Part shown: positions 21,970-33,102 of the stretch, piece after piece
How positions within the stretch are numbered: position 1 is the first letter of the stretch
Layout: each line of letters starts with the position of its first letter
From: a virus
Taxonomy: Duplodnaviria; Caudoviricetes
IMG/VR virus record: IMGVR_UViG_3300008255_000256
Span: 1-36,896 of that record
Direction: 5' to 3' (one strand)
Length of the DNA: 36,896 bases
Translations under genes and position numbers: made by a program
The notes under the pieces: generated by a model
The model's database searches: none
What the model saw: the letters and a program-made list of their open reading frames with translations, nothing else
Told to the model about the DNA's origin: nothing

Positions 21970-22233
21970 ATGACAACAATAGAAACAATCAAAGCAATAA
22001 AAGACTATGGATTACTTGCAGTAGCAGTTATAGTTTTTGTATGGATGAATGGACAGCTTTCTGAACAGAAGCAAGATATTAAAGAAATTCAGGGTATATT
22101 ATATGATTGTTTTGAAGATAGGATAAAGGAGAATATAAGACCTATATCATTTAATGAGACAACACCGGTATCGATATTTAGAGTTAAGTCGGTTTGTGTA
22201 TTGCCTGAAGAAATTAAAATAAAAAATTCATGA
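21970..22233 (+). CDS. small membrane protein in the lysis cluster
   Basis: One TM segment plus short coiled coil; ATG 21970 preferred over TTG 21952. Confidence 0.55.
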   Translation: MTTIETIKAIKDYGLLAVAVIVFVWMNGQLSEQKQDIKEIQGILYDCFEDRIKENIRPISFNETTPVSIFRVKSVCVLPEEIKIKNS

Positions 22234-22478
22234 ACGTTCAGAAGTTAATTGACGATACTTTAAAAGGTCCAGATAATAAATGGAGTAGAAAGTCGTTAAC
22301 GGCTTTTATTTCAATGGCTATCGCTGTTATCACTGGAGCGTATATTGTTGTTTCAGATTACTTTTTAGACCGTGAAATAAATCAGTATGCGATTATGGTT
22401 TTTTATGGCTTCCTTGGTTTGGGTGGTGGAACTCTAGGATTAACGGTAATTGATAAAATAAAAAATAAATCAGAATGA
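22230..22478 (+). CDS. putative holin
   Basis: 82 aa, two TM segments, overlaps the endolysin start. Confidence 0.65.
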   Translation: MNVQKLIDDTLKGPDNKWSRKSLTAFISMAIAVITGAYIVVSDYFLDREINQYAIMVFYGFLGLGGGTLGLTVIDKIKNKSE

Positions 22479-22921
22479 AACTATCAGAACACGTAAGTTT
22501 GTCAGAATTTGAACATTCGGAAACGGCAACAAGAAAGGGGTATGATCAAAGCATGAACGCTGAACAATTAGAGAGCGCAAAAGAACTTTGTGAAAAGATA
22601 TTTGAACCATTAAGAAAATTTCGTGGTTCTGCAATTTTCATCAGTTCAGGTTTTCGTGGTTTACAATTAAATAAAGCCATTGGAGGTGCTTCAAGTTCTC
22701 AGCATTGTAAAGGACAAGCAATTGACATAAAAATAAACGCTGAAGAGTTTCATTTCATAAAGGATAATTTAAACTTTGATCAGTTAATATGGGAGTTCGG
22801 AAACGACGATCAACCACAATGGGTTCATGTTTCTTATGATCGTTTTAAAACTAAACAAAGAAACCAAGTATTGAAAGCGATTAAAATTGGAGGTAAAACT
22901 AAATACATTCCGTTCAAATGA
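22475..22921 (+). CDS. endolysin, peptidase M15 family
   Basis: SSGFR...N..IGGASSSQH.KGQAID and WVHVS zinc-peptidase motifs. Confidence 0.9.
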   Translation: MKLSEHVSLSEFEHSETATRKGYDQSMNAEQLESAKELCEKIFEPLRKFRGSAIFISSGFRGLQLNKAIGGASSSQHCKGQAIDIKINAEEFHFIKDNLNFDQLIWEFGNDDQPQWVHVSYDRFKTKQRNQVLKAIKIGGKTKYIPFK

Positions 22922-23148
22922 AACTACTATTTAAAAACTGGGGATTCTGGTCTATAATTGGAAACGTTATTTTCATTTCCACCATTATAATAATGGCGGT
23001 TATTTGGAACGGTCACGAATGTCCAAAGCAGGAACTCCCAGAGATAACAGAAAAACACATACAACAAATTAAACGAATAGGAAATGCAGAAACTAAACAA
23101 GATATTGATAGTTTGCTTATTGAGCTTTACAACTTTGGCTCAAAATGA
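22918..23148 (+). CDS. membrane protein (spanin-like position)
   Basis: N-terminal TM segment; follows the endolysin. Confidence 0.5.
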   Translation: MKLLFKNWGFWSIIGNVIFISTIIIMAVIWNGHECPKQELPEITEKHIQQIKRIGNAETKQDIDSLLIELYNFGSK

Positions 23149-23392
23149 CAGTACTTTTTGCTTTACAAAATCTCAAGTAAAGGTATTTCTAACTACTAAG
23201 GTAGAATTAAACAACTGTAACGAACAGTACAATTTGATTTCAACGCAAAAACAAGCGATTTCAGACAGTTTAACCGCTGAAATGTTAAATACTACCAAAC
23301 TAGATAAAAAAGTCAAAAGAAACCGACGTATTGCAATTGGTGGTATTAGTGGATTTATCGCTGTTATTGTGTTGATGTTCGCAATTAAATAG
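23084..23392 (+). CDS. secreted/membrane coiled-coil protein (spanin-like position)
   Basis: Signal-peptide-like start, coiled coil and C-terminal TM; overlaps the previous ORF by 65 nt. Confidence 0.5.
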   Translation: MQKLNKILIVCLLSFTTLAQNDSTFCFTKSQVKVFLTTKVELNNCNEQYNLISTQKQAISDSLTAEMLNTTKLDKKVKRNRRIAIGGISGFIAVIVLMFAIK

Positions 23393-23442
23393 TATTTTCA
23401 TCGAGCCAAAGCCTTAATAAACTGGATTTATTAGTGCAAATT

Positions 23443-23473
23443 AAAACCCGTTAATTTATTTTAGCGGGTTTTT
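23443..23473 (+). terminator. intrinsic terminator ending the late block
   Basis: AAAACCCGTTAA...TTAGCGGGTTTT. Confidence 0.75.
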
Positions 23474-23496
23474 CTGTATCATCTAATGGTCAAACG

Positions 23497-23528
23497 TTTG
23501 ATAATTTAACTTATAAATAGTATTTTAG
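23497..23528 (+). promoter_or_regulatory. candidate promoter
   Basis: TTTG, 20-nt spacer, TATTTTAG (one mismatch to TAnnTTTG). Confidence 0.45.
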
Positions 23529-23532
23529 CACT

Positions 23533-23605
23533 TTCATAATGTAATTTTCGGTTAGGTTAGTTTAATTTTAGTTAAAAACCACTACGTTAATTCGTAGCGG
23601 TTTTT
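23533..23605 (+). ncRNA. candidate small RNA 2 (ends approximate)
   Basis: ORF-less promoter-to-terminator unit containing TTTCATAAT and TTTTCGGTTA. Confidence 0.4.
23574..23605. terminator. bidirectional intrinsic terminator
   Basis: AAAAACCACTACG-TTAATT-CGTAGCGGTTTTT at the convergence of the two gene blocks. Confidence 0.7.
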
Positions 23606-23781
23606 GAGTTTTTAATCAGTATGGAATCGGCTTCATTTTGCGGATCCAAAACCAGTCCAGATTTAGCGGTTATGGATTCACAGTATTTTTTCCATCTGTA
23701 TTTTAAATTAGCTCCTGAATTATCGAACTGGTAAACGCTTATTTTTCCGTTGCTCCATAGAATATACACGTCTGATTTCAT
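23587..23781 (-). CDS. hypothetical protein
   Basis: ATG 23781 in an A-rich context; the longer predicted start overlaps the tRNA-like element. Confidence 0.45.
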   Translation of the reverse strand: MKSDVYILWSNGKISVYQFDNSGANLKYRWKKYCESITAKSGLVLDPQNEADSILIKNSKTATN

Positions 23782-23798
23782 TTTCGTTTTTTTTTTAG

Positions 23799-23921
23799 TG
23801 GATAACACGGGATTCGAACCCGTAAATGTAGATTATTTTATTTCTTGGTCGCTTATCTTTATTACACGCCACCTACTAACATCCCTGCCGAGAGCTTGTC
23901 TACCAATTCCAACAGTTATCC
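23799..23921 (-). ncRNA. tRNA-like RNA A (no canonical anticodon loop)
   Basis: Acceptor GGATAAC/GTTATCC+A, D-arm TTGGAATTGGTAGACAA, T-arm ACGGG-TTCGAAT-CCCGT; 123 nt. Confidence 0.8.
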
Positions 23922-23932
23922 GTAAATTAATA

Positions 23933-23997
23933 ATTATAACGTTGTGTAAACGCCACTATGCGGACGTTTACACGGGCGTTTACACGGGCGTTATAAT
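23933..23997. repeat. long hairpin with a tandemly duplicated arm
   Basis: CGTTTACACGGG twice (23965-23988); inverted GTGTAAACGCC at 23944-23954; outer ATTATAACG/CGTTATAAT. Confidence 0.75.
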
Positions 23998-24746
23998 CAA
24001 TCCAATACCTCATTATCGTCACCTAATATCTCAGCTGAAATATCTTCAGTTTCATTATCCGGATAATCGAATTCATTGTTTTCTGCATTAATTATAACTG
24101 CCTGGTCTGCATTTATGGCCGTCTGCATTTCTAGTGACAATGGTCCCCATTTCGATAATATTTGTTTAAGTACCGTTTTCAATGCCTGGGAATCAAAATC
24201 TGTAACCCAATTTCCAACGCCTTTTTTAAAGGTCTGAGAATACGTTAAACCGTGTGTTTTCACTTTGTCTTTACTCCAGTATAATGTTTTCTCAAATCCA
24301 CCATTTAAAATGAAATACGCAACGTATCCAACAACATCTCCAGTTTCAGGCTTTGAGAAATCAGCTTTTAATTCCTCAGTTAATGTGTTGAATGATTCAA
24401 ACTGACTTGAATAAACTTTGATAACGTTTATTTTTTTGTACTGTCCTGATCTAAGTGCTAATTGAACGAGTCCTTTCCATCCTATTTGGAATTGCGCCTT
24501 TCCTTTATATGGTACAATGTATGCATGACCTATCGAAGTTAATATAGGCAAATCGAGCATCGCAGCAACTAAAGCAGACTGATAAATTGATTCAGTGGAT
24601 GCGTTAATCAGTAGATTATTTTGCGATGTTACCTGTAAAATTGAGGTTGCAAATTGTTTAGAGCGATTTTCACCCAGTAGTCCAGAGAATTTTGCAATTA
24701 CAGATGGACTATTGAAGTATTGCGCATGAAGTTGTAAATTACTCAT
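23997..24746 (-). CDS. recT: RecT-family single-strand annealing protein
   Basis: GHAYIVPY, AQFQIGWKGLVQLALRSGQY, VVGYVAYF, W..DFD..ALKTV motifs. Confidence 0.92.
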   Translation of the reverse strand: MSNLQLHAQYFNSPSVIAKFSGLLGENRSKQFATSILQVTSQNNLLINASTESIYQSALVAAMLDLPILTSIGHAYIVPYKGKAQFQIGWKGLVQLALRSGQYKKINVIKVYSSQFESFNTLTEELKADFSKPETGDVVGYVAYFILNGGFEKTLYWSKDKVKTHGLTYSQTFKKGVGNWVTDFDSQALKTVLKQILSKWGPLSLEMQTAINADQAVIINAENNEFDYPDNETEDISAEILGDDNEVLD

Positions 24747-24916
24747 TTTGAAATATTTTTGAAGTTAGAAAATGTGCTAAAAATTAGCGTGAAAAGAAAC
24801 ACAAAAAATAGAATAAATGATATCAATGTTTCATCTGAAAAAATAACGAACATCAAAGATAGTATTAATCCGATGAGTGATATTGTTGGTAATATTATGT
24901 GAATGATTGTTTTCAT
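24743..24916 (-). CDS. small membrane protein (57 aa)
   Basis: Read manually (MKTIIHIILPTISLIGLIL...); two TM segments; ATGA overlaps on both sides. Confidence 0.55.
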   Translation of the reverse strand: MKTIIHIILPTISLIGLILSLMFVIFSDETLISFILFFVFLFTLIFSTFSNFKNISK

Positions 24917-25068
24917 TTGATTCGTTTTAATGCCGTTTGATATTGGGCTGTATAATAATTAATTCGCCTGTGGTATTTACCGAAAGGATCTCCGTAATTT
25001 ATTGTTGATCGTTTCCAGAGTTCGATTTGGAATTTTAAATCGTTTGCTCGCTTAATTAAGTTTTTCAT
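24913..25068 (-). CDS. hypothetical protein (51 aa)
   Basis: Read manually (MKNLIKRANDLKFQIELWK...); fills the gap with overlaps on both sides. Confidence 0.5.
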   Translation of the reverse strand: MKNLIKRANDLKFQIELWKRSTINYGDPFGKYHRRINYYTAQYQTALKRIK

Positions 25069-25378
25069 AAATTATTTTTTCGTCTCCTGTTAAATCTTCA
25101 ATTGTTAGTTTATCGTAATCCGGTATAATCATTTCTGATTCTGTTTTCCAATACTGTTTTGGTTCTCTAAGTTGATTTATCTGCCTATTCTCATGTGCCA
25201 TTTGAGCCATAAACCAACTAATTATACGTGATGTTTTAGTATTATGGAGGTGTAATTGCTTTGATATTAAATAAATCGGAATATGATGAACAAAAAATTT
25301 ATCTCTAATTCTGTAAATTTTATCAATACTAATTTTCTCCTTATCGGCATATTCCTTAATAATCATTTGCTCAGCCAC
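25052..25378 (-). CDS. hypothetical protein
   Basis: 108-aa ORF in the leftward operon; possible HTH-like segment. Confidence 0.55.
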   Translation of the reverse strand: MAEQMIIKEYADKEKISIDKIYRIRDKFFVHHIPIYLISKQLHLHNTKTSRIISWFMAQMAHENRQINQLREPKQYWKTESEMIIPDYDKLTIEDLTGDEKIIYEKLN

Positions 25379-25632
25379 AAGACTGTAGTTTTACCATTCA
25401 ACAATCCTAGCGCCTTAATGAATTTACGTTTTGTCATTTGGCAATTATACCAGTCGACAAATGTAATGCATTCAAAATTGGCAACGGTTAACGACTTGCA
25501 TTTGTTACCCAAATCGTATGCGTAAATTTTTAATTTCAGAGGATTAATATCTTCTGGAAAATTCAAAAGTTGTTGGTGCTGTATTTTGCGTTTTACAGTT
25601 CCAATCATTTCGGTTTTTGGTGGTGTTATCAT
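25363..25632 (-). CDS. hypothetical protein (alternative start 25608)
   Basis: 89-aa ORF; second in-frame ATG preceded by AACCGAA. Confidence 0.5.
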   Translation of the reverse strand: MITPPKTEMIGTVKRKIQHQQLLNFPEDINPLKLKIYAYDLGNKCKSLTVANFECITFVDWYNCQMTKRKFIKALGLLNGKTTVLWLSK

Positions 25633-25644
25633 GTTTTATAATTA

Positions 25645-25863
25645 TTATAATTGTTTAATTTTTAGAATTTGCATAACATCACCTACAGGAACACTCAATT
25701 GTAGAGCACATTTTAAAACCTCAATTGTTTTGTCATAGCTGTTTGTTTTTGAATAAACATATTTAACAGTTTCAAAAGGGTAAATTGAACACCTAGTTAT
25801 AGTTTTCAATAGTTCTAACTGTAGATTGTTAAGTTCTGTTTTTGGGTTTATTTCTTCTGCCAT
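25645..25863 (-). CDS. hypothetical protein
   Basis: 72-aa ORF in the leftward operon. Confidence 0.5.
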   Translation of the reverse strand: MAEEINPKTELNNLQLELLKTITRCSIYPFETVKYVYSKTNSYDKTIEVLKCALQLSVPVGDVMQILKIKQL

Positions 25864-25966
25864 AATGTCAATTATTATCGTCGTTTAAAATCCGTTTCTA
25901 TTAAAATTAACTTTGTAATCATCCCATCTATCAAGCAACCAATCACAGACGGCCACCCCTATAAAT

Positions 25967-26212
25967 CTAAATACTTTTTTCATCTCCTATATATTTATAC
26001 ATTTCACTTCGTCTTAATTCCTCAGCCTTACTGTCATTACTCACATTCGATATACTGAACGCTAATAATCCAAGCAGTATCAAACAGAATATTATCATAA
26101 TTAAAGCATACTCATATTTCGACGGTTGATCCAATGGTGTATATTCGTTTTCAATCTCTGGTTTTTTAACTCCAAAGCTGTTAAATGCGTCGTTTATTTT
26201 TTTATCTGTCAT
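25967..26212 (-). CDS. hypothetical membrane protein
   Basis: Single central TM segment. Confidence 0.55.
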   Translation of the reverse strand: MTDKKINDAFNSFGVKKPEIENEYTPLDQPSKYEYALIMIIFCLILLGLLAFSISNVSNDSKAEELRRSEMYKYIGDEKSI

Positions 26213-26218
26213 GGTTAA

Positions 26219-26614
26219 TTATTTACGTCTTATTGTTGGATATTGACCTACATTTCCAGAAAACATCTGTCTTTTTTTAGGATAACCATACTTACTCATT
26301 ACGTTCTGATAATCTGATAGCGACTTCATGCCTAATCCACGTTGATTTGCTAAATATGATACGTGAGGGCAGTCTGATAATTTAGGTGCGTTAGACTCAA
26401 TGTTTTCAATTAACCAATTCAATAATCTACCGCGGAAAACTTCATAAATATACGGGTTTAATGAGGCTGGATTAATTGAGTTGTAATCTTTGATTAATTT
26501 ATCATTTTTAGCTGATAAATTAATTTCGTACATGTACTTATCAGACGTTCTCATTTCTTGAATTTCTGTAATGAACTCATCTAATAATTTCGCTTTTTGT
26601 TCGGTTGTGGTCAT
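26219..26614 (-). CDS. hypothetical protein
   Basis: 131-aa ORF. Confidence 0.6.
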   Translation of the reverse strand: MTTTEQKAKLLDEFITEIQEMRTSDKYMYEINLSAKNDKLIKDYNSINPASLNPYIYEVFRGRLLNWLIENIESNAPKLSDCPHVSYLANQRGLGMKSLSDYQNVMSKYGYPKKRQMFSGNVGQYPTIRRK

Positions 26615-26646
26615 GATATGAATGATTTTAATACGTTAGTTAATGA

Positions 26647-26820
26647 TTAACCTAAAATACGTTCAACGGTAGGACGGCTGTTAACATCATTGTATTGGTC
26701 AGTCCAATGCTCAATATATAAATCAATTTGATTTGATTCTAAAGCCTGTTTAGCTGCTATTCTCCAGATTCCAAATCTATCACGTTCGGAAATTTCTTCT
26801 GTAAATTCTTTTTTTGTCAT
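26647..26820 (-). CDS. hypothetical protein (57 aa)
   Basis: Read manually (MTKKEFTEEISERDRFGIWRIAAK...); preceded by a -7 element and AACCGAAA. Confidence 0.6.
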   Translation of the reverse strand: MTKKEFTEEISERDRFGIWRIAAKQALESNQIDLYIEHWTDQYNDVNSRPTVERILG

Positions 26821-26843
26821 TATTTCGGTTATTATTTACCTTA

Positions 26844-26851
26844 CAAATATA
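26844..26851 (-). promoter_or_regulatory. Bacteroidota -7 promoter element
   Basis: TATATTTG on the minus strand in an intergenic gap. Confidence 0.6.
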
Positions 26852-26950
26852 TAGATTATTTTATATATTAAATGTTAAAATATGTTAATTTTTAAAACGG
26901 AGCGTAACAGTCAATTAAATACATGCTAACGCACGTTTTTAATTTTGGTG

Positions 26951-27655
26951 TTACAACTCCATAACCTTACTCGTGTAACTATTCCAAACGCCTGTACGCA
27001 TACATTCAACGTAAACTGATAAATCCTCGTTTATTTCCAATTCTGCATACTGGTGCATTTCTTCATTGATAACATACAATCCATACGCATACGGTGGTTT
27101 TTTTTCAATCGCTAGGAATATGAAGTGATTTATTTTTATTCCATTTTGCTGTAAAATACGCTTATAGAACACGTCTTGAACGTGATAACGATATTTATAC
27201 GCTGAATGTTTAAAACCTCTAGGAGACGCGTCCTCTACGAATTTAGGGTCAATGATAATGCCTCTCGACTCGTCAATTAAATCAACTCTACATTTTATCG
27301 CAGCGCCCGTTTCTAAATCTCTTGATTTGTATGTTTTTTCAGTAATTCCATTCTTAAAAATACTCGCAAATTCAGGAATCGAATGTATTATTTTAGACTG
27401 ATTTTCCATGTGTTTAAAATCTTCCATATTTATATTTCCTTCAGATGTTTTTCTGTCCGAAACGGAATAATTTAAAAAGAAATCATCCTTTTCGAGTAAA
27501 TACATGTGTGACGCTTGACCTATAATTAACGGTTTTGTAGATGTGAAATCTTTGGCATCGAGTCTGAAATGCTTATAAAATATAGGCGCTTTGTGAACGA
27601 GGTCTAATCCAGATTTTGAAATGCTGGAAATATCCTTATGATAGTCTAACTCCAT
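26951..27655 (-). CDS. RecE/exonuclease VIII-like PD-(D/E)XK nuclease (DUF3799-like)
   Basis: YH....ISKSGL, G.A.H...LE, KCRVD, IIDPK, YRYHVQ..FY, F.F.AIEK.PPY. Confidence 0.85.
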   Translation of the reverse strand: MELDYHKDISSISKSGLDLVHKAPIFYKHFRLDAKDFTSTKPLIIGQASHMYLLEKDDFFLNYSVSDRKTSEGNINMEDFKHMENQSKIIHSIPEFASIFKNGITEKTYKSRDLETGAAIKCRVDLIDESRGIIIDPKFVEDASPRGFKHSAYKYRYHVQDVFYKRILQQNGIKINHFIFLAIEKKPPYAYGLYVINEEMHQYAELEINEDLSVYVECMRTGVWNSYTSKVMEL

Positions 27656-27747
27656 AACTTATAAATTACAAATACGAGTAAAATAAACGCTCCTAAAATA
27701 TAACGTGATGCATGTTTGTCTTGGTCTCTTTTGAATTTTCTTTTCAT
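27646..27747 (-). CDS. very small membrane peptide (33 aa)
   Basis: Read manually; ATGA overlap with the helicase stop; one TM segment. Confidence 0.35.
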   Translation of the reverse strand: MKRKFKRDQDKHASRYILGAFILLVFVIYKLWS

Positions 27748-28922
27748 TTTATTATGATTTTAAGTCCTTCAGGTGATACAACTCTCGATAACGCTACATA
27801 CATTTGCCCTTTTTGGAAACATGGGCGCGTTAAATCAACGGTCACCTCATCGAATGTCATTCCTTGGCTTTTGTGAATACTCATTGCATACGCTAATCTA
27901 ATCGGATACTGCTCTATTGATCCGATAGTGTTTAATTCAAGTTCTTGTTTTTCATAATTAAAAACATACTCCTTTTTATCGAACTCCTTTTTTTCTAGTA
28001 GATATTCAACGCCTTTTACTTTTATGAAATATCCATTTTTATTTGATATAAATTCTCCTATCGTTCCATTTCTTAATGGATTATTCGTTGAATTAATTAG
28101 GTGCATTATTTTTGCGCCGTGCTTTACTCTTAATTTACTTTCAAGGTTAAAATCTTCAGCGTTTATATTTCCTGTTACTTTAGCGTCAAAAATAAGAAGT
28201 TTAGAATATATTTTTGATAATCCATCTTCATTGTACTTCATAGCCGTTGAATTATGAGGAGCTAGAATTATTCCAGACGGATCATTCGACACAAACTGTT
28301 TAAAATATTCACTTTTACCACCGTCACGAATTATATTTAAATTCGATACAAACTCCTCATTTTTCTGCCTTAACACCTCATCTAATTCAATTACTAAAGG
28401 ATTGATTTCCGAGTAGATGAATGAGTCCATGAATGTAATCCCTTTATATCCTTTCTGAAACATCACAGCCTTTGAATTATCATCTAGCACAACGGGTAAT
28501 TGTTTCATGTCGCCTATAAATATAATTTGCTTAGTCGATAACGGTTTGCAATTATTCTTTAAAAGCGTCCAATTCATAGCGTCTAAAACGTCAGGGCGTA
28601 ACATCGATACTTCATCAATGAAAATTGTGGTCACTTCGTCGAGTAGTCTCCGTTTTTCTTTTTTCATAAAGTTACAGGTAGAAAAATCTAAAACTCCATA
28701 AGGAAAAAGTGAAAACATAGAATGAATAGTTTGTCCATTAATGTGATTCGCCGCCATTCCTGTTGGCGCAATTGCAACGATTCGTTTACCTCGTTTTTTC
28801 AATTCAGATATCGCATGACTAACGATAAACGATTTTCCAGTTCCAGCCTTACCAGTCAGAAATATATTTTGACCAGATTTTACAAGCTCTATAAATTCGT
28901 TTTGTTTTGAGGATAATTTCAT
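27744..28922 (-). CDS. PIF1/RecD-like SF1B helicase
   Basis: GKAGTGKS, APTGMAA, TIHS, IDEVSM, GDMKQLP, LAYAMSIHKSQG, GQMYVALSRV. Confidence 0.92.
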   Translation of the reverse strand: MKLSSKQNEFIELVKSGQNIFLTGKAGTGKSFIVSHAISELKKRGKRIVAIAPTGMAANHINGQTIHSMFSLFPYGVLDFSTCNFMKKEKRRLLDEVTTIFIDEVSMLRPDVLDAMNWTLLKNNCKPLSTKQIIFIGDMKQLPVVLDDNSKAVMFQKGYKGITFMDSFIYSEINPLVIELDEVLRQKNEEFVSNLNIIRDGGKSEYFKQFVSNDPSGIILAPHNSTAMKYNEDGLSKIYSKLLIFDAKVTGNINAEDFNLESKLRVKHGAKIMHLINSTNNPLRNGTIGEFISNKNGYFIKVKGVEYLLEKKEFDKKEYVFNYEKQELELNTIGSIEQYPIRLAYAMSIHKSQGMTFDEVTVDLTRPCFQKGQMYVALSRVVSPEGLKIIIK

Positions 28923-28927
28923 TTCGG

Positions 28928-29140
28928 TTATTGTTTTTTGAATAATTCAGGCTGTCTAATTTCTAACTCTGAATAGGCATCCTGTCTACCAACTGACTCG
29001 TGGTACCACCCTGGCATTACGATAATTCCAGTAAAGTAAACACCTCTAATACTTTGGACGTCTCTTATTATTTTGAACATTTTTTCAGGCCTCAACTGAC
29101 CTCTTCTAAAACTGTTTGTTGGTGCGAATACTGCTATCAT
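28928..29140 (-). CDS. hypothetical protein
   Basis: 70-aa ORF in the operon. Confidence 0.5.
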   Translation of the reverse strand: MIAVFAPTNSFRRGQLRPEKMFKIIRDVQSIRGVYFTGIIVMPGWYHESVGRQDAYSELEIRQPELFKKQ

Positions 29141-29142
29141 AA

Positions 29143-29373
29143 TTATTTAGGTTTATCGTTTTTCGTTTGTTTTGATATTAAATTCTTAACCATCAATAAC
29201 TCATGTTTTAATTCTGCTATTTGACGAACTAAAAAATGAAACGTTTCAGTTTCAGGTGTTGGAAATTCATTGATTTTTATACCACGCTTTATTGCCATGG
29301 TATTGTTGAAATCCTTTATTATTTGATTATGTAAACTTTCGGAGATATCTATTCCTTTTGATTCCTTACTCAT
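29143..29373 (-). CDS. hypothetical protein
   Basis: ATG 29373 follows the promoter and AACCGAAAT; the TTG start at 29397 overlaps the promoter. Confidence 0.55.
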   Translation of the reverse strand: MSKESKGIDISESLHNQIIKDFNNTMAIKRGIKINEFPTPETETFHFLVRQIAELKHELLMVKNLISKQTKNDKPK

Positions 29374-29394
29374 ATTTCGGTTTTTATTTTTTTT

Positions 29395-29443
29395 CAAATA
29401 TATGTAAAATTTTCTATGTATTACAAAATAATAACTATATTTA
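29395..29443. promoter_or_regulatory. divergent promoter region
   Basis: Minus strand: TTTG (29427-29424), 21 nt, TATATTTG (29402-29395). Plus strand: TATATTTA at 29436-29443. Confidence 0.65.
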
Positions 29444-29458
29444 CAGAAAAATTAATAT

Positions 29459-29644
29459 ATGAAACAATCAGTTTATCAGAATTTGCAAGCGAAGTGCAAA
29501 GAAAAAAATATTTCTGTACGTGAATTAACCAAACGTGCGGGCGTTAAATATGAACGTGTTGCAAATTGGAAACGTCAAGAACCTGCCGTATTCTCAGATT
29601 ATGCGAGATTATTAGAGGAACTTGAGAAAATCGAAACGGTATGA
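29459..29644 (+). CDS. Cro/XRE-like HTH regulator
   Basis: 61 aa; SVRELTKRAGV.YERVANWK helix-turn-helix; first gene at the divergence point. Confidence 0.75.
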   Translation: MKQSVYQNLQAKCKEKNISVRELTKRAGVKYERVANWKRQEPAVFSDYARLLEELEKIETV

Positions 29645-29820
29645 AAAATATAATGAATATTATTATAATTGTAGTGATAATAGGAGCGATAAGTATACCT
29701 ATTATATACAATTTTATTCATCCAGAACTAACCAGAATGCAGATATTTTTTAAATTTTGGTGGTTATATATTTTATTTATTTCAGTAGGAATGTTCTTTA
29801 AATATAAATCAAACACTTAA
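29641..29820 (+). CDS. small membrane protein (59 aa)
   Basis: Read manually; ATGA overlap; two hydrophobic segments. Confidence 0.55.
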   Translation: MKNIMNIIIIVVIIGAISIPIIYNFIHPELTRMQIFFKFWWLYILFISVGMFFKYKSNT

Positions 29821-29825
29821 TAAAT

Positions 29826-29946
29826 TCCGTTGTGGTGAAACTGGTAAACACGCTCTCGGCAGGGTAGTATGTAATGGCGTTGAATGTAGAGATACGCCCA
29901 GAAATAAAGTAATTACAATTTGCAGGTTCGAATCCTGTCAACGGAA
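29826..29946 (+). ncRNA. tRNA-like RNA B (no canonical anticodon loop)
   Basis: Acceptor TCCGTTG/CAACGGA+A, D-arm GTGAAACTGGTAAACAC, T-arm GCAGG-TTCGAAT-CCTGT; 121 nt. Confidence 0.8.
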
Positions 29947-29970
29947 CTAACAAATAAAAACAAATAAATA

Positions 29971-30363
29971 ATGGCTCTAATTACATTAAACGTGAACATT
30001 AATACATGGTCACCAGAAATCGTTAAAGGTGAATACCGACACATTGAATTGGAATGTACTGAGGTAAACAGTCAGTACCCTCAAACCTATAAGGTCCAAG
30101 TTCGTTCACAAAACTATGATAAGGTTAATCAACACCTTAAACAGAACGCTGTTTTATCGTTAAAATGCAACCTCTCAGGTCGTAATTGGACAAATCCAGA
30201 AGGTAAAACGATGAATTTTATCGGATTGGATTGTTTTGGAGTTGCAGAACAACCAGCACAATCAGCACCGCCAGTAAACGCTCCAGTGGTGAATAACACT
30301 CCAGCACCGTCAAACACTCCAGCACCTCCAGCGAACAACGCACCGCTAGATCCACCATTTTAA
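29971..30363 (+). CDS. single-stranded DNA-binding protein-like (DUF3127-like)
   Basis: QYPQ, NLSGRNWTNPEG...F; Pro/Ala linker and terminal DPPF. Confidence 0.75.
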   Translation: MALITLNVNINTWSPEIVKGEYRHIELECTEVNSQYPQTYKVQVRSQNYDKVNQHLKQNAVLSLKCNLSGRNWTNPEGKTMNFIGLDCFGVAEQPAQSAPPVNAPVVNNTPAPSNTPAPPANNAPLDPPF

Positions 30364-30374
30364 CATTAACACCG

Positions 30375-30403
30375 CCCCTCTATTAATTTAGAGGGGATTT
30401 TTT
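30375..30403 (+). terminator. intrinsic terminator
   Basis: CCCCTCTA-TTAATT-TAGAGGGG followed by ATTTTTT. Confidence 0.7.
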
Positions 30404-30412
30404 AACCGAAAT

Positions 30413-30652
30413 ATGAAAAACTGTAAAATTAAACGGGTGATAGTTCCGTATGCAAATATGCACGAATTTACGGATGTTGAATTTATTAAACTATTTGGTA
30501 AAATTCCTGATTTTAGAAAATTTATAACATGCGCTAACATTTCAGATGGATTAAAATATGAGAATTCAAATCCAGAAATAAAATATTTAGAAGGTCGTGT
30601 TAAATTCGTCAAATTCACACCTGAGCAATTCTTAAAACATTACCTGAAATGA
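30413..30652 (+). CDS. hypothetical protein
   Basis: 79 aa; ATGA overlap with the helicase. Confidence 0.55.
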   Translation: MKNCKIKRVIVPYANMHEFTDVEFIKLFGKIPDFRKFITCANISDGLKYENSNPEIKYLEGRVKFVKFTPEQFLKHYLK

Positions 30653-33102
30653 TAACACCGAGAGATTATCAATCTGTATTTATCAACAATACACGCAACG
30701 AATTAATTAATAATCGTTCGGTTCTTGGTGTTCTACCAACTGGTGGCGGTAAAACTGTTTGTTTCACCTACATCACTCAACTCGCTATGCAACGAAATTC
30801 AATCGTATGGATTATAGCACACCGCAAGGAATTAATTAATCAGGCATCTAAAACATTAAACTCATTTGGAGTAAAACACGGTATCATTTCACCAAAATTT
30901 ACACCTAATTACCACTCAAACGTTCAAGTCGCATCAGTTCAAACGTTAGCGAATAGATATCATAAATATGAAAATCCAAATATTATCATAATCGACGAGT
31001 GTTTTACAGGTGAAACGTTAGTAGATGGTGTAAGAATTGATTCTTTAGTTGTTGGAGAAGAAATATCATCGTTTAATCATGACTATTCTAAAATTGAAAA
31101 AAAGAGAATAGAGAAAATATACAATAGAGAATATACTGGAGATTGGTATAGAGTCAAGATGATGGACGGTACCGAAATAGTATGCACAGAAAACCACCCT
31201 TTCTATGTTGCTTCAAAAGGGTATATTTCTATAAAAGAAATAAAAAAAACAAGTGATAACTGCAACATGATGCCTATATTTGTTTCTAATGAAATAAACA
31301 ATGAAAGATATTTGTCAAAATTGCCAAAAATTCACCGAAAGGAGCAAACCCAAAAGACTGAAAAAGTTTTGCGATACAAAATGCAAGGCAGAATTTTACA
31401 ATCTAAGTCTGAGTCCACTTCCAGAATTGAGATGTTTAATTTGCGAAAAGAAATCGAACTATTACAAGACGAGAAAATCGCATTTAGAAGCATCAAGGAA
31501 AGGTCGATCATTTTGCTCAAAGGAATGTGTAAAGACATATCAAAAACAGTTGAGTTCAGAGACAATGTCCAAGACAAACCGAAAATATGCCTCAGAAAGG
31601 ATGAAAGTAAAAAACCCTATGTTCAACGAGAAATCATTAGAAAAAATGAAGAATTCAATGCAGGGAAAAACTTTCCTGTCTCGAGGCGGAAATGGTCAAA
31701 ATACAAGGCAACAAATATTATTAGCGAACGCTTTAAATCTACCAACGGAACATGCTATAACCTTAAAGTCTGTAAAACACTTGTTTCAAAGCGTCCCGAA
31801 CTGCTACAAGGTAGATATCGCCTATCCACAGATCAAGTTAGCAATAGAAGTGGATGGAAAGACTCACAGGCTGAAGAAATGGAAGTTCTTAGACAGAAGG
31901 AAAACGGAAATTTTATCGGAATTAGGGTGGACTGTATTGAGGTTTACAAACGAGGAAGTGGACAACGACCTGAATGGGTGCCTGGAAATAACACAGTCTA
32001 TAATATCCACGTTGAAGACAATCTAAATTATTTTGCAAATGGAATTTTAGTTCACAATTGTCATCACAGTACAGCTGGGCAATGGCGTAAAATAATCGAC
32101 CAATATCCAGATGCCAAAGTAATCGGAGTTACGGCAACACCTGAACGTTCTGACGGAATTGGACTCGGTGATATTTACGATTCATTGGTTATTGGACCAC
32201 AAATTTATGAATTAATCGAATTAGGGTATTTAGTACCTCCAATTGTGTATCGACCTCCAATGGTTGCTGAATTAAACGATGTTAAACGTCATAAATCCGA
32301 TTATGTTCGCGAGGATCTTGCAAGGGTAATGAATAAGCCAACAATTACAGGTGACGCGATTGAACATTACAAAAAACACGCTTATGGATTACCTACAATT
32401 GTATTCACAGCAAACGTTCAACACGCAAAAGATGTTGCTAAACAATTTAGAGATTATGGCTTTGCGTTCTATGCAATTGACGGCTCGATTGATGATAAAG
32501 AACGTGACCGATTAATTAACGGTTTGGGTGGTCCAGATGTAACAGGATTAGTTTCATGTGATTTGATTTCTGAGGGAACGGATATTCCTGCTGTTGGATG
32601 TTTGATTTTATTACGTCCAACTCAATCATTAGGTTTGTTTTTACAGCAAATAGGACGTGGACTAAGAACGATTGAAGGTAAATCGAATTGTATAATTTTG
32701 GACCATGTAGGAAATACATTGCGTCATGGAATGCCAACACAACATCGTGAATGGTCGCTTGAAGGGCGTAAAAAAAGAGGTTCGAAAGCAGTACAAGAAG
32801 ATGATATAAACATCACGACATGCACTGAATGTTATTTCACGTCAACGAAGTTCAGTATTTGCCCGTCCTGTGGATTTGAGGTTAAAATAATACCTCAATC
32901 TGAAATCGAAACTGTTGATGGTGAATTACAGTTAGCTGAAGAAATAGAACGAAAGGAAAAGGCAGAATTAAAACAAGCAGTTTACAACGCACGTGATCGT
33001 GAATCGTTGGAGGCGATAGCGAAGCAAAAAGGGTATAAACGCGGTTGGGTTGAACACATGTTGAAATCTAGAGCCGAAAAAGAATTAAATCGAGTATTAT
33101 GA
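30649..33102 (+). CDS. SF2 DExH helicase with intein (464 aa after splicing)
   Basis: PRDYQ, LPTGGGKT, IIDE^CHH, GVTATPER, SEGTDIP, QQIGRGLR and C-terminal CxxC..CxxC. Confidence 0.93.
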   Translation: MITPRDYQSVFINNTRNELINNRSVLGVLPTGGGKTVCFTYITQLAMQRNSIVWIIAHRKELINQASKTLNSFGVKHGIISPKFTPNYHSNVQVASVQTLANRYHKYENPNIIIIDECFTGETLVDGVRIDSLVVGEEISSFNHDYSKIEKKRIEKIYNREYTGDWYRVKMMDGTEIVCTENHPFYVASKGYISIKEIKKTSDNCNMMPIFVSNEINNERYLSKLPKIHRKEQTQKTEKVLRYKMQGRILQSKSESTSRIEMFNLRKEIELLQDEKIAFRSIKERSIILLKGMCKDISKTVEFRDNVQDKPKICLRKDESKKPYVQREIIRKNEEFNAGKNFPVSRRKWSKYKATNIISERFKSTNGTCYNLKVCKTLVSKRPELLQGRYRLSTDQVSNRSGWKDSQAEEMEVLRQKENGNFIGIRVDCIEVYKRGSGQRPEWVPGNNTVYNIHVEDNLNYFANGILVHNCHHSTAGQWRKIIDQYPDAKVIGVTATPERSDGIGLGDIYDSLVIGPQIYELIELGYLVPPIVYRPPMVAELNDVKRHKSDYVREDLARVMNKPTITGDAIEHYKKHAYGLPTIVFTANVQHAKDVAKQFRDYGFAFYAIDGSIDDKERDRLINGLGGPDVTGLVSCDLISEGTDIPAVGCLILLRPTQSLGLFLQQIGRGLRTIEGKSNCIILDHVGNTLRHGMPTQHREWSLEGRKKRGSKAVQEDDINITTCTECYFTSTKFSICPSCGFEVKIIPQSEIETVDGELQLAEEIERKEKAELKQAVYNARDRESLEAIAKQKGYKRGWVEHMLKSRAEKELNRVL
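31275..31282 (+). promoter_or_regulatory. candidate internal -7 promoter for the nested endonuclease
   Basis: TATATTTG ends 18 nt before ATG 31301; no clear -33 element. Confidence 0.55.
31301..32026 (+). CDS. Vsr/DUF559-like putative homing endonuclease nested in the +1 frame of the intein
   Basis: Two CxxC...FCxxxC repeats, NUMOD-like linker, YKVDIAYPQIKLAIEVDGKTH...DRRKTEILSELGWTVLRFTNEEV. Confidence 0.88.
   Translation: MKDICQNCQKFTERSKPKRLKKFCDTKCKAEFYNLSLSPLPELRCLICEKKSNYYKTRKSHLEASRKGRSFCSKECVKTYQKQLSSETMSKTNRKYASERMKVKNPMFNEKSLEKMKNSMQGKTFLSRGGNGQNTRQQILLANALNLPTEHAITLKSVKHLFQSVPNCYKVDIAYPQIKLAIEVDGKTHRLKKWKFLDRRKTEILSELGWTVLRFTNEEVDNDLNGCLEITQSIISTLKTI

What the first reader, a model, noticed from the sequence alone, without database searches (positions are those of the whole stretch)
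29826..29946. tRNA-like RNA B: intact elbow and acceptor, anticodon arm reduced to a tetraloop, giant variable arm
Seen: canonical 7-bp acceptor, D-arm and T-arm, discriminator A, no encoded CCA. The anticodon arm is replaced by CTCT-CGGC-AGGG (4-bp stem, 4-nt loop). It is followed by a ~55-nt arm with TGTAAT/ATTACA and GGCGT/ACGCC helices and an A-rich bulge (CAGAAATAAAGTA). The D-loop and A73 resemble tRNA-Leu, whose synthetase largely ignores the anticodon. Inference: a non-decoding tRNA mimic, such as a decoy for tRNA-targeting defence nucleases or synthetases, or a stable scaffold RNA.
Basis: partly seen in the sequence, partly recalled or inferred. Interest (0 to 1): 0.75.

Follow-up and report, generated by a model that had tools for sequence, protein, structure and literature searches.

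The report
Anticodon-less leucine-tRNA mimic of phages
This phage carries two copies of a gene for a leucine-tRNA-shaped RNA whose codon-reading loop is replaced by a four-base cap and whose side arm holds a conserved 48-base domain kept intact across unrelated phages; it likely cannot read codons and likely uses the tRNA body as a host-processed carrier for that domain, whose target is not known.

Summary
Real and conserved. Window 29826-29946 is one of two copies (64% identical) in a phage genome, and one of 11 distinct sequences in about 7 lineages. All score 91-147 bits on a covariance model; plain tRNAs and other look-alikes score at most 51. Of 31 base pairs, 23 show compensatory changes, and 98.5% of cells pair. 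The body keeps the leucine identity set (A73, A15:U48, G18G19) while the acceptor sequence drifts freely. No single deletion restores a normal tRNA. The most conserved part is the variable-arm domain: a GGCG helix, an apical loop and a 13-nt bulge, each loop with an AGNNA motif. This partly fits the double T-loop module that docks tRNA elbows. No neighbouring gene is shared. Best reading: a non-decoding tRNA-Leu chassis that presents a compact binding domain to a host translation or defence factor. Expression, charging and target are untested. The closest precedent is T5 RNA1, which is not homologous.

The parts
29826..29946 (+). RNA B, whole gene (121 nt, G1-equivalent to discriminator A; CCA not encoded)
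   Evidence: 117.8 bits; B is in the model's training set
29826..29832 (+). acceptor stem 5' strand, pairs with 29939-29945; sequence free, pairing kept
   Evidence: 7 of 7 pairs with double changes, 100% paired
29835..29851 (+). D arm of tRNA-Leu type: 3-bp stem, A14, A15, G18G19, A20a
29853..29867 (+). shortened anticodon arm, 15 nt: 5-bp stem with one bulged base, GGCA loop at 29858-29861, no anticodon
29870..29875 (+). variable-arm basal helix 5' strand, pairs with 29912-29917
   Evidence: 5 of 6 pairs with double changes
29876..29898 (+). upper hairpin: nearly invariant GGCG helix and 13-nt apical loop with RGNNA at 29888-29892
   Evidence: G and last A of the motif 11 of 11, first A 10 of 11, purine two bases upstream 11 of 11
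29899..29911 (+). 13-nt A-rich bulge with AGNAA at 29900-29904 followed by UAAA-R-U; most conserved element
   Evidence: nine of its bases were in the pattern that found most members, but L428, A and B were not selected on it
29922..29938 (+). T arm, canonical UUCGAAU loop; U48 at 29921
23799..23921 (-). RNA A, second copy of the family (123 nt, 64% identical to B), downstream of the RecT-like gene
29459..30363 (+). host operon: small HTH gene (29459-29644), 59-aa hydrophobic ORF (29641-29820), RNA B, SSB-like gene (29971-30363), terminator-like hairpin at 30375-30396; context, not shared by other members

Best explanation
A phage gene for a tRNA-Leu-derived RNA without an anticodon that is likely cut out of a polycistronic phage transcript, CCA-tailed and possibly leucylated by the host's tRNA enzymes, and that likely serves as a stable carrier for a conserved variable-arm domain predicted to bind a host translation or defence factor in trans. 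Steps: (1) shown: intact acceptor, D and T arms, Leu identity set, capped anticodon arm, covarying extra domain, spread among unlike phages with no partner gene. (2) From established knowledge: RNase P and 3' trimming plus CCA addition act on such a body, and bacterial LeuRS needs neither anticodon arm nor variable-arm sequence. (3) Inferred: the 13-nt bulge lets the upper hairpin fold back on the basal helix so that the two purine-rich loops pack together, most likely as a double T-loop-like platform. (4) Inferred and untested: this surface, not the tRNA body, holds the specificity and binds its partner (a tRNA elbow or a host RNA-binding protein), to the phage's benefit.
For: Family sharply bounded: 11 sequences at 91-147 bits against at most 51 for all else scored; 5 of the 11 were not in the training set and score 91-115. 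Covariation in every helix. Conservation is highest in the bulge, the GGCG helix and three apical positions, and nil in the acceptor. Leu set kept in 11 of 11; among the class II tRNAs of a Flavobacterium genome only the 4 Leu tRNAs have A15:U48 with A73; identity rules from PMC9976931 (passages) and PMC2377443 (abstract). Members lie in sense orientation between unrelated genes: early operons here, beside terminase or portal genes in L053, L133 and provirus G159, in an array of tRNA-shaped genes in L055. Patchy: 0 of 9 loci with RecT relatives hold one within the DNA fetched. AG..A pattern with a purine at -2 in the apical loop: column-permutation P = 0.01 on 7 lineages, post hoc.
Against: No expression, processing, charging or binding data. 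The double T-loop consensus is AGNNA...UGNNA (PMC3664808); here both motifs start with A, so one defining feature fails. The looser pattern has P = 0.08, and L428 has a pyrimidine at the predicted platform position. Only about 7 independent lineages, and bulge invariance is partly circular. A 54-nt variable arm may block LeuRS or EF-Tu, and arm orientation matters for LeuRS (PMC2377443, abstract). No target is named by any result here.
Confidence: 0.6

Rival explanations
1. Plain decoy: the tRNA-like body soaks up a tRNA-targeting toxin or synthetase and cannot be cut at an anticodon; the extra arm only stabilises.
For: Elbow, acceptor geometry and A73 are intact in 11 of 11; no anticodon loop to cleave.
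Against: Acceptor sequence 0 of 14 columns invariant and anticodon stem replaced in L428, so no particular tRNA is imitated; single-stranded loops are the best-kept part.
Confidence: 0.15
2. Nuclease bait: the exposed bulge presents a cleavage word (GAAAU, the E. coli ToxN motif) and inhibits a type III toxin or similar endoribonuclease.
For: GAAAU lies in the bulge of 10 of 11, twice in 3; motif from PMC10853763 (passages).
Against: L428 lacks it; five bases in an A-rich loop are weak evidence; no antitoxin-like repeats; the host's toxins are unknown.
Confidence: 0.07
3. Miniature tmRNA-like RNA: a charged body with an internal short reading frame (ATG/GTG GCG ... TAA) used as template or for ribosome release.
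For: ATG or GTG followed by GCG in 11 of 11; the frame closes inside the bulge in 7 of 11 rows (6 of 7 lineages), giving 10-12 codons.
Against: Three different frames at the bulge, one lineage open; middle residues not conserved; the start is buried in a helix; the bulge has stops in two of three frames, so closure is expected often; D stem present, G3:U70 in only 1 of 10 checked, ARAGORN finds no tmRNA.
Confidence: 0.07
4. mRNA-processing signal: the tRNA shape only directs host RNase P and 3' nucleases to cut the phage operon in front of the next gene.
For: Always sense within operons, 14-29 nt before a start codon in B, L027, L055, L089 and L133.
Against: Ordinary phage tRNA genes lie the same way; neighbours differ in every lineage; does not explain the conserved loops.
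Confidence: 0.06
5. Intron-bearing or decaying tRNA gene, or an integration site.
For: 2 of 9 members tested pass the Rfam tRNA cut-off.
Against: 0 of 11 give a canonical arm after any single deletion; compensatory changes in every helix; in provirus G159 the gene is internal, about 19 kb from the integrase.
Confidence: 0.03

Closest known systems
Phage T5 RNA1 (AY543070 30501-30644, annotated 'tRNA-like stable RNA with unknown functions'); also T5 RNA2
   Same: Leu-type D arm and T arm around a structured insert with no anticodon, in a phage.
   Different: Different insert and length (144 nt); 32 bits on the model, like plain tRNA-Leu (33.7-37.7) and far below members (91 or more); RNA2 18 bits. 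Lies in a tRNA cluster, which most members here do not.
Phage T4 RNA C and RNA D (rnaC, rnaD; AF158101)
   Same: Small stable phage RNAs of 119-139 nt; rnaC has a tRNA-type T arm.
   Different: rnaC 21.5 bits, rnaD no match at E <= 1; no shared motif.
Bacterial class II tRNA-Leu (Rfam RF00005)
   Same: A73, A14, A15:U48, G18G19, A20a, 3-bp D stem, and in 10 of 11 also G26, C27-G43.
   Different: 4-nt loop in place of the 7-nt anticodon loop; variable region 54 nt; ARAGORN finds nothing.
Interdigitated double T-loop module of RNase P, the L1 stalk and T-box stem I (PMC3664808, PMC4919913)
   Same: Apical loop and bulge separated by a short helix, each with AG..A conserved at positions 1, 2 and 5; purine two bases before one motif and a central purine in the other.
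   Different: Second motif starts with A, not U; bulge lies 3' of the hairpin, the mirror of T-box stem I; no sequence likeness to Flavobacterium 23S rRNA or RNase P RNA; no structure.

Membership tests
decoding tRNA (RF00005) | 7-bp acceptor, D arm, 5-bp T arm with UUCRA loop | tested here: met
   100% paired in all three helices
decoding tRNA (RF00005) | 7-nt anticodon loop with U33 and a triplet | tested here: not met
   GGCA loop in 9 of 11, 5- and 6-nt unrelated loops in 2
decoding tRNA (RF00005) | detected by ARAGORN or above the Rfam cut-off | tested here: not met
   A and B: none; 2 of 7 other members pass the Rfam cut-off
LeuRS substrate | A73, A15:U48, G18G19, U8:A14, U54:A58, U55, C56 | tested here: met
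   11 of 11; rules from PMC9976931
LeuRS substrate | A20a in the D loop | tested here: met
   10 of 11; L089 has one extra U
LeuRS substrate | variable-arm orientation tolerated; actual leucylation | not testable with these tools
   needs an aminoacylation assay
intron-containing tRNA | removal of one segment yields a canonical anticodon arm | tested here: not met
   0 of 11
tmRNA | G3:U70, no D stem, conserved tag frame | tested here: not met
   G3:U70 1 of 10; D stem 11 of 11; frame varies
double T-loop module | one AGNNA T-loop with positions 1, 2, 5 conserved | tested here: met
   both loops
double T-loop module | partner loop of type UGNNA | tested here: not met
   partner is AGNNA (10 of 11) or GGNNA; a UGNNA at the loop's 5' edge in 5 of 11 uses a base that is paired in the helix
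double T-loop module | one purine:purine platform | tested here: inconclusive
   R:R in 10 of 11, R:Y in L428; the loops are purine-rich anyway
double T-loop module | interdigitated 3D fold that stacks on a tRNA elbow | not testable with these tools
   no RNA 3D tool
T5 RNA1/RNA2, T4 RNA C/D | homologous insert | tested here: not met
   at most 32 bits
phage tRNA-like stable RNAs (as a kind) | accumulates as a processed stable RNA in infection | not testable with these tools
   no RNA run to lay

The most novel reading that the evidence does not exclude
The variable arm folds into an interdigitated double T-loop, the module by which RNase P, the ribosomal L1 stalk and T-box leaders grip tRNA elbows. 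This would be a fourth natural instance and the first on an RNA that has an elbow of its own: a phage RNA that clamps host tRNAs, or chains head to tail with itself and its second copy.
Probability: 0.2. Interest if true: 0.88.

Novelty: new variant of a known kind. Interest (0 to 1): 0.58.

Why it matters
tRNA-shaped stable RNAs of T4 and T5 are still annotated as of unknown function. This family is small (120-124 nt), has a covariation-backed structure, and separates cleanly into a free chassis and a few invariant loop bases, so the question 'what is the body for and what is the insert for' can be tested with a handful of point mutants. Its presence in a virulent-looking myovirus (two copies), larger phage-like contigs and a complete provirus points to a portable function aimed at the host. 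If the loops grip tRNA elbows it would be a new way for a virus to handle host translation. Temper: this scan has noted several other tRNA-shaped phage RNA families, so the kind is not rare.

Tried and rejected
Pattern on the CTCGGCAG arm: 6 of 6 viral hits were chance or an ordinary tRNA. Patterns gave 8, 1, 53 and 24 loci and only the two known viral contigs. Five hits with a similar helix-bulge look lie between HNH and terminase genes of an unrelated phage and fold differently; rejected. GTDB pattern scan: 0 of 31 hits are members, most being the 3' end of one Bacteroidota protein gene; that pattern would miss the L133 and L428 types. 151 genomes of one Bacteroidota order: not found in those searched (pattern 2 hits, both non-members; model 0 of 151 with only 23 candidates scored per genome and no positive control). 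INPHARED blastn with B, A, B's insert, L133 and L089: no record covers 80% of the query. Sense or antisense likeness of the insert to Flavobacterium 23S rRNA and RNase P RNA: nothing within 3 mismatches, one local hit at the shuffle edge. Antisense target of the bulge in the window: 6 sites at up to 2 mismatches besides the two genes, no control, not pursued. Sigma-70 scan 8 against 7.0 expected; TAnnTTTG (recalled Bacteroidota motif) 62 against 51 +/- 7: neither is evidence. No RNA holder listed among 14 runs. Runs X3-X5 do not cover B fully. ARAGORN at lowered thresholds gave noise. Literature: 10 searches showed no paper on this family. In PMC10690425, 7 supplementary files held no hit for the motif or two contig ids; 2 large files could not be read and may hold it.

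Full report
Setting. The window is a whole viral record of 36,896 bases, estimated 75% complete. It encodes terminase, sheath, tape measure, portal, capsid, endolysin, RecT/RecE-like, helicase and primase proteins; none of the 29 ORFs scanned is an integrase. Terminase and sheath hit Flavobacterium phages best, at 35-39% identity, so a Bacteroidota host is likely but not shown. RNA B lies in sense orientation between a 59-aa ORF and an SSB-like gene; a second copy, RNA A (23799-23921, minus), follows the RecT-like gene. ARAGORN and Rfam find nothing in the window at their cut-offs, and a relaxed Rfam scan of 22000-32000 gives no match on B.

Observation. Acceptor, D arm, T arm, discriminator A, missing CCA, both variable-arm helices and the bulge are as described. 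One contig from run X2 spans the gene with no difference (same year and habitat label as the possible source, so perhaps one campaign).

Family. A pattern of the bulge plus T arm gave 2 members among 39 viral loci and 11 member loci among 120 metagenome loci (the scan stopped after 54 of 64 parts). Of those 11, two repeat the viral contigs, two are A and B on a longer contig of what appears to be the same phage, and L150 equals L148. A pattern containing neither the bulge nor the anticodon arm gave 3 members among 74 loci, one of them new (L428). The total is 11 distinct sequences in about 7 lineages at 61-73% identity between lineages. A model built from 6 of them scores members 91-147 bits and everything else at most 51. 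Three other members lie on IMG/VR records, one a 99% complete provirus; L133 lies near a terminase fragment; L083, L089, L116 and L121 are phage-like by my reading of their ORFs only. No neighbouring gene is shared, and 0 of 9 loci with RecT relatives hold a member.

Structure and constraint. On 11 sequences 98.5% of 339 cells pair and 23 of 31 pairs have double changes; no shuffle reaches this and slid partners give 37-46%. The alignment was fitted to the model, and RNAalifold gave the same structure on the 10-sequence version. The acceptor has no invariant column; the bulge has 11 of 13 on 9 rows. Nine bulge bases were in the pattern that found most members, so that count is partly circular. 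A, B and L428 were not selected on it and keep it (L428 with two changes), and the GGCG helix, the U-A pair at the helix junction and three apical positions were in no metagenome pattern. The body is tRNA-Leu: A73, A14, A15:U48 and G18G19 in 11 of 11, A20a in 10 of 11. Among the class II tRNAs of one Flavobacterium genome only the four Leu tRNAs combine A15:U48 with A73. PMC9976931 (passages read) lists these as the E. coli leucine determinants and reports that variants without anticodon arm and variable arm stay chargeable; PMC2377443 (abstract) adds that variable-arm orientation matters. No single deletion yields a canonical anticodon arm in any of 11.

The conserved domain. Both loops carry AGNNA. 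In the apical loop positions 1, 2 and 5 are kept (10, 11, 11 of 11) while 3 and 4 vary, and the base two before is always a purine. PMC3664808 (parts 1-3 of 5 read) defines the elbow-binding double T-loop by AGNNA...UGNNA with one purine:purine platform; PMC4919913 (passages) names such modules as worth seeking in viral RNAs. The fit is partial: the U-closed partner is missing, the post hoc permutation test gives P = 0.01 for the strict pattern and 0.08 for the loose one, and L428 has U at the predicted platform base. A further hint: columns 29-70 and 30-69 (base of the anticodon stem against positions 4 and 3 of the apical motif) covary in two lineages and are the only stacked pair among 12 covarying pairs outside the model. 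I had listed this helix before L428 was found; L428 met one prediction and broke the third pair. If real, the arm folds back to the core of the RNA. Two events are too few to claim it.

How it most likely works. Shown: anatomy, Leu identity set, loss of the anticodon, selection on the extra domain, independence of gene context. From established tRNA biology (my knowledge): such a body is matured by RNase P, 3' trimming and CCA addition, which frees it from the operon transcript and protects its ends. Inferred: it may be leucylated; it cannot decode; the function lies in a compact fold of the two loops that binds a host partner in trans. I put 0.6 on this carrier reading and 0.2 on the specific elbow-binding module. 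Rivals are a plain decoy (0.15), nuclease bait with GAAAU (0.07; absent in L428; motif from passages of PMC10853763), a miniature reading frame (0.07; start codon in 11 of 11, closed in 7 of 11, frames differ), a processing signal (0.06) and an intron, pseudogene or att site (0.03).

Comparison with what is known. T5 RNA1, annotated as a tRNA-like stable RNA of unknown function, has the same kind of body with another insert and scores 32 bits, like plain tRNA-Leu; T5 RNA2 scores 18, T4 RNA C 21.5 and RNA D nothing. Allo-tRNAs (PMC5389517, passages) have 8/4 or 9/3 branches and anticodons; this family is 7/5 without one. The review PMC7609411 (passages) does not mention phages. Ten paper searches and the readable supplements of PMC10690425 did not show the family; two large supplements were unreadable. 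Earlier notes of this scan describe other tRNA-shaped phage RNAs but no look-alike of this sequence; they are leads, not support.

Verdict. Interest 0.58.

Noticed in passing
L055 3017-3127, 3698-3823, 3947-4044 (minus): Array of further tRNA-shaped genes with unrelated inserts directly upstream of the family member; an RNA ligase gene (PF09414) lies 1 kb downstream and a metallophosphoesterase upstream.
   Followed up: partly
L037 1248-1384, 1522-1644, 1846-2050, 2057-2162, 2281-2419 (plus): tRNA cluster of a 123-kb phage contig with several tRNA bodies carrying long structured inserts in or in place of the anticodon loop; ARAGORN calls only two ordinary tRNA-Ser there.
   Followed up: no
L019 1990-2104 (minus); L011 1876-2049, L124 1419-1600, L152 173-270 (plus): Other Leu-type bodies with different inserts. 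L019 has a helix-hairpin-bulge arm with an apical AGNNA and the same bulge start, but 37 bits and discriminator U; possibly a distant relative. All four were selected on the bulge motif.
   Followed up: partly
L426 1486-1609 (minus): Leu-type body with a 6-bp arm closing a 5-nt loop and another long variable arm (41.9 bits); a different family.
   Followed up: no
window 30649-33102 and 31301-32026 (plus): The superfamily 2 helicase carries an intein (PF14890), and an out-of-frame 241-aa ORF with a DUF559 endonuclease domain lies inside the intein's DNA.
   Followed up: no
L116 376-498 (minus): This one member has G3:U70 with A73, the alanine determinant (recalled), unlike its close relatives.
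   Followed up: no
window 29380-29460 and 26840-26860: Divergent AT-rich region between the leftward and rightward early operons with TATATTTG on the minus strand at 29395 and 26844, like the recalled Bacteroidota -7 element; the motif is not enriched window-wide.
   Followed up: partly
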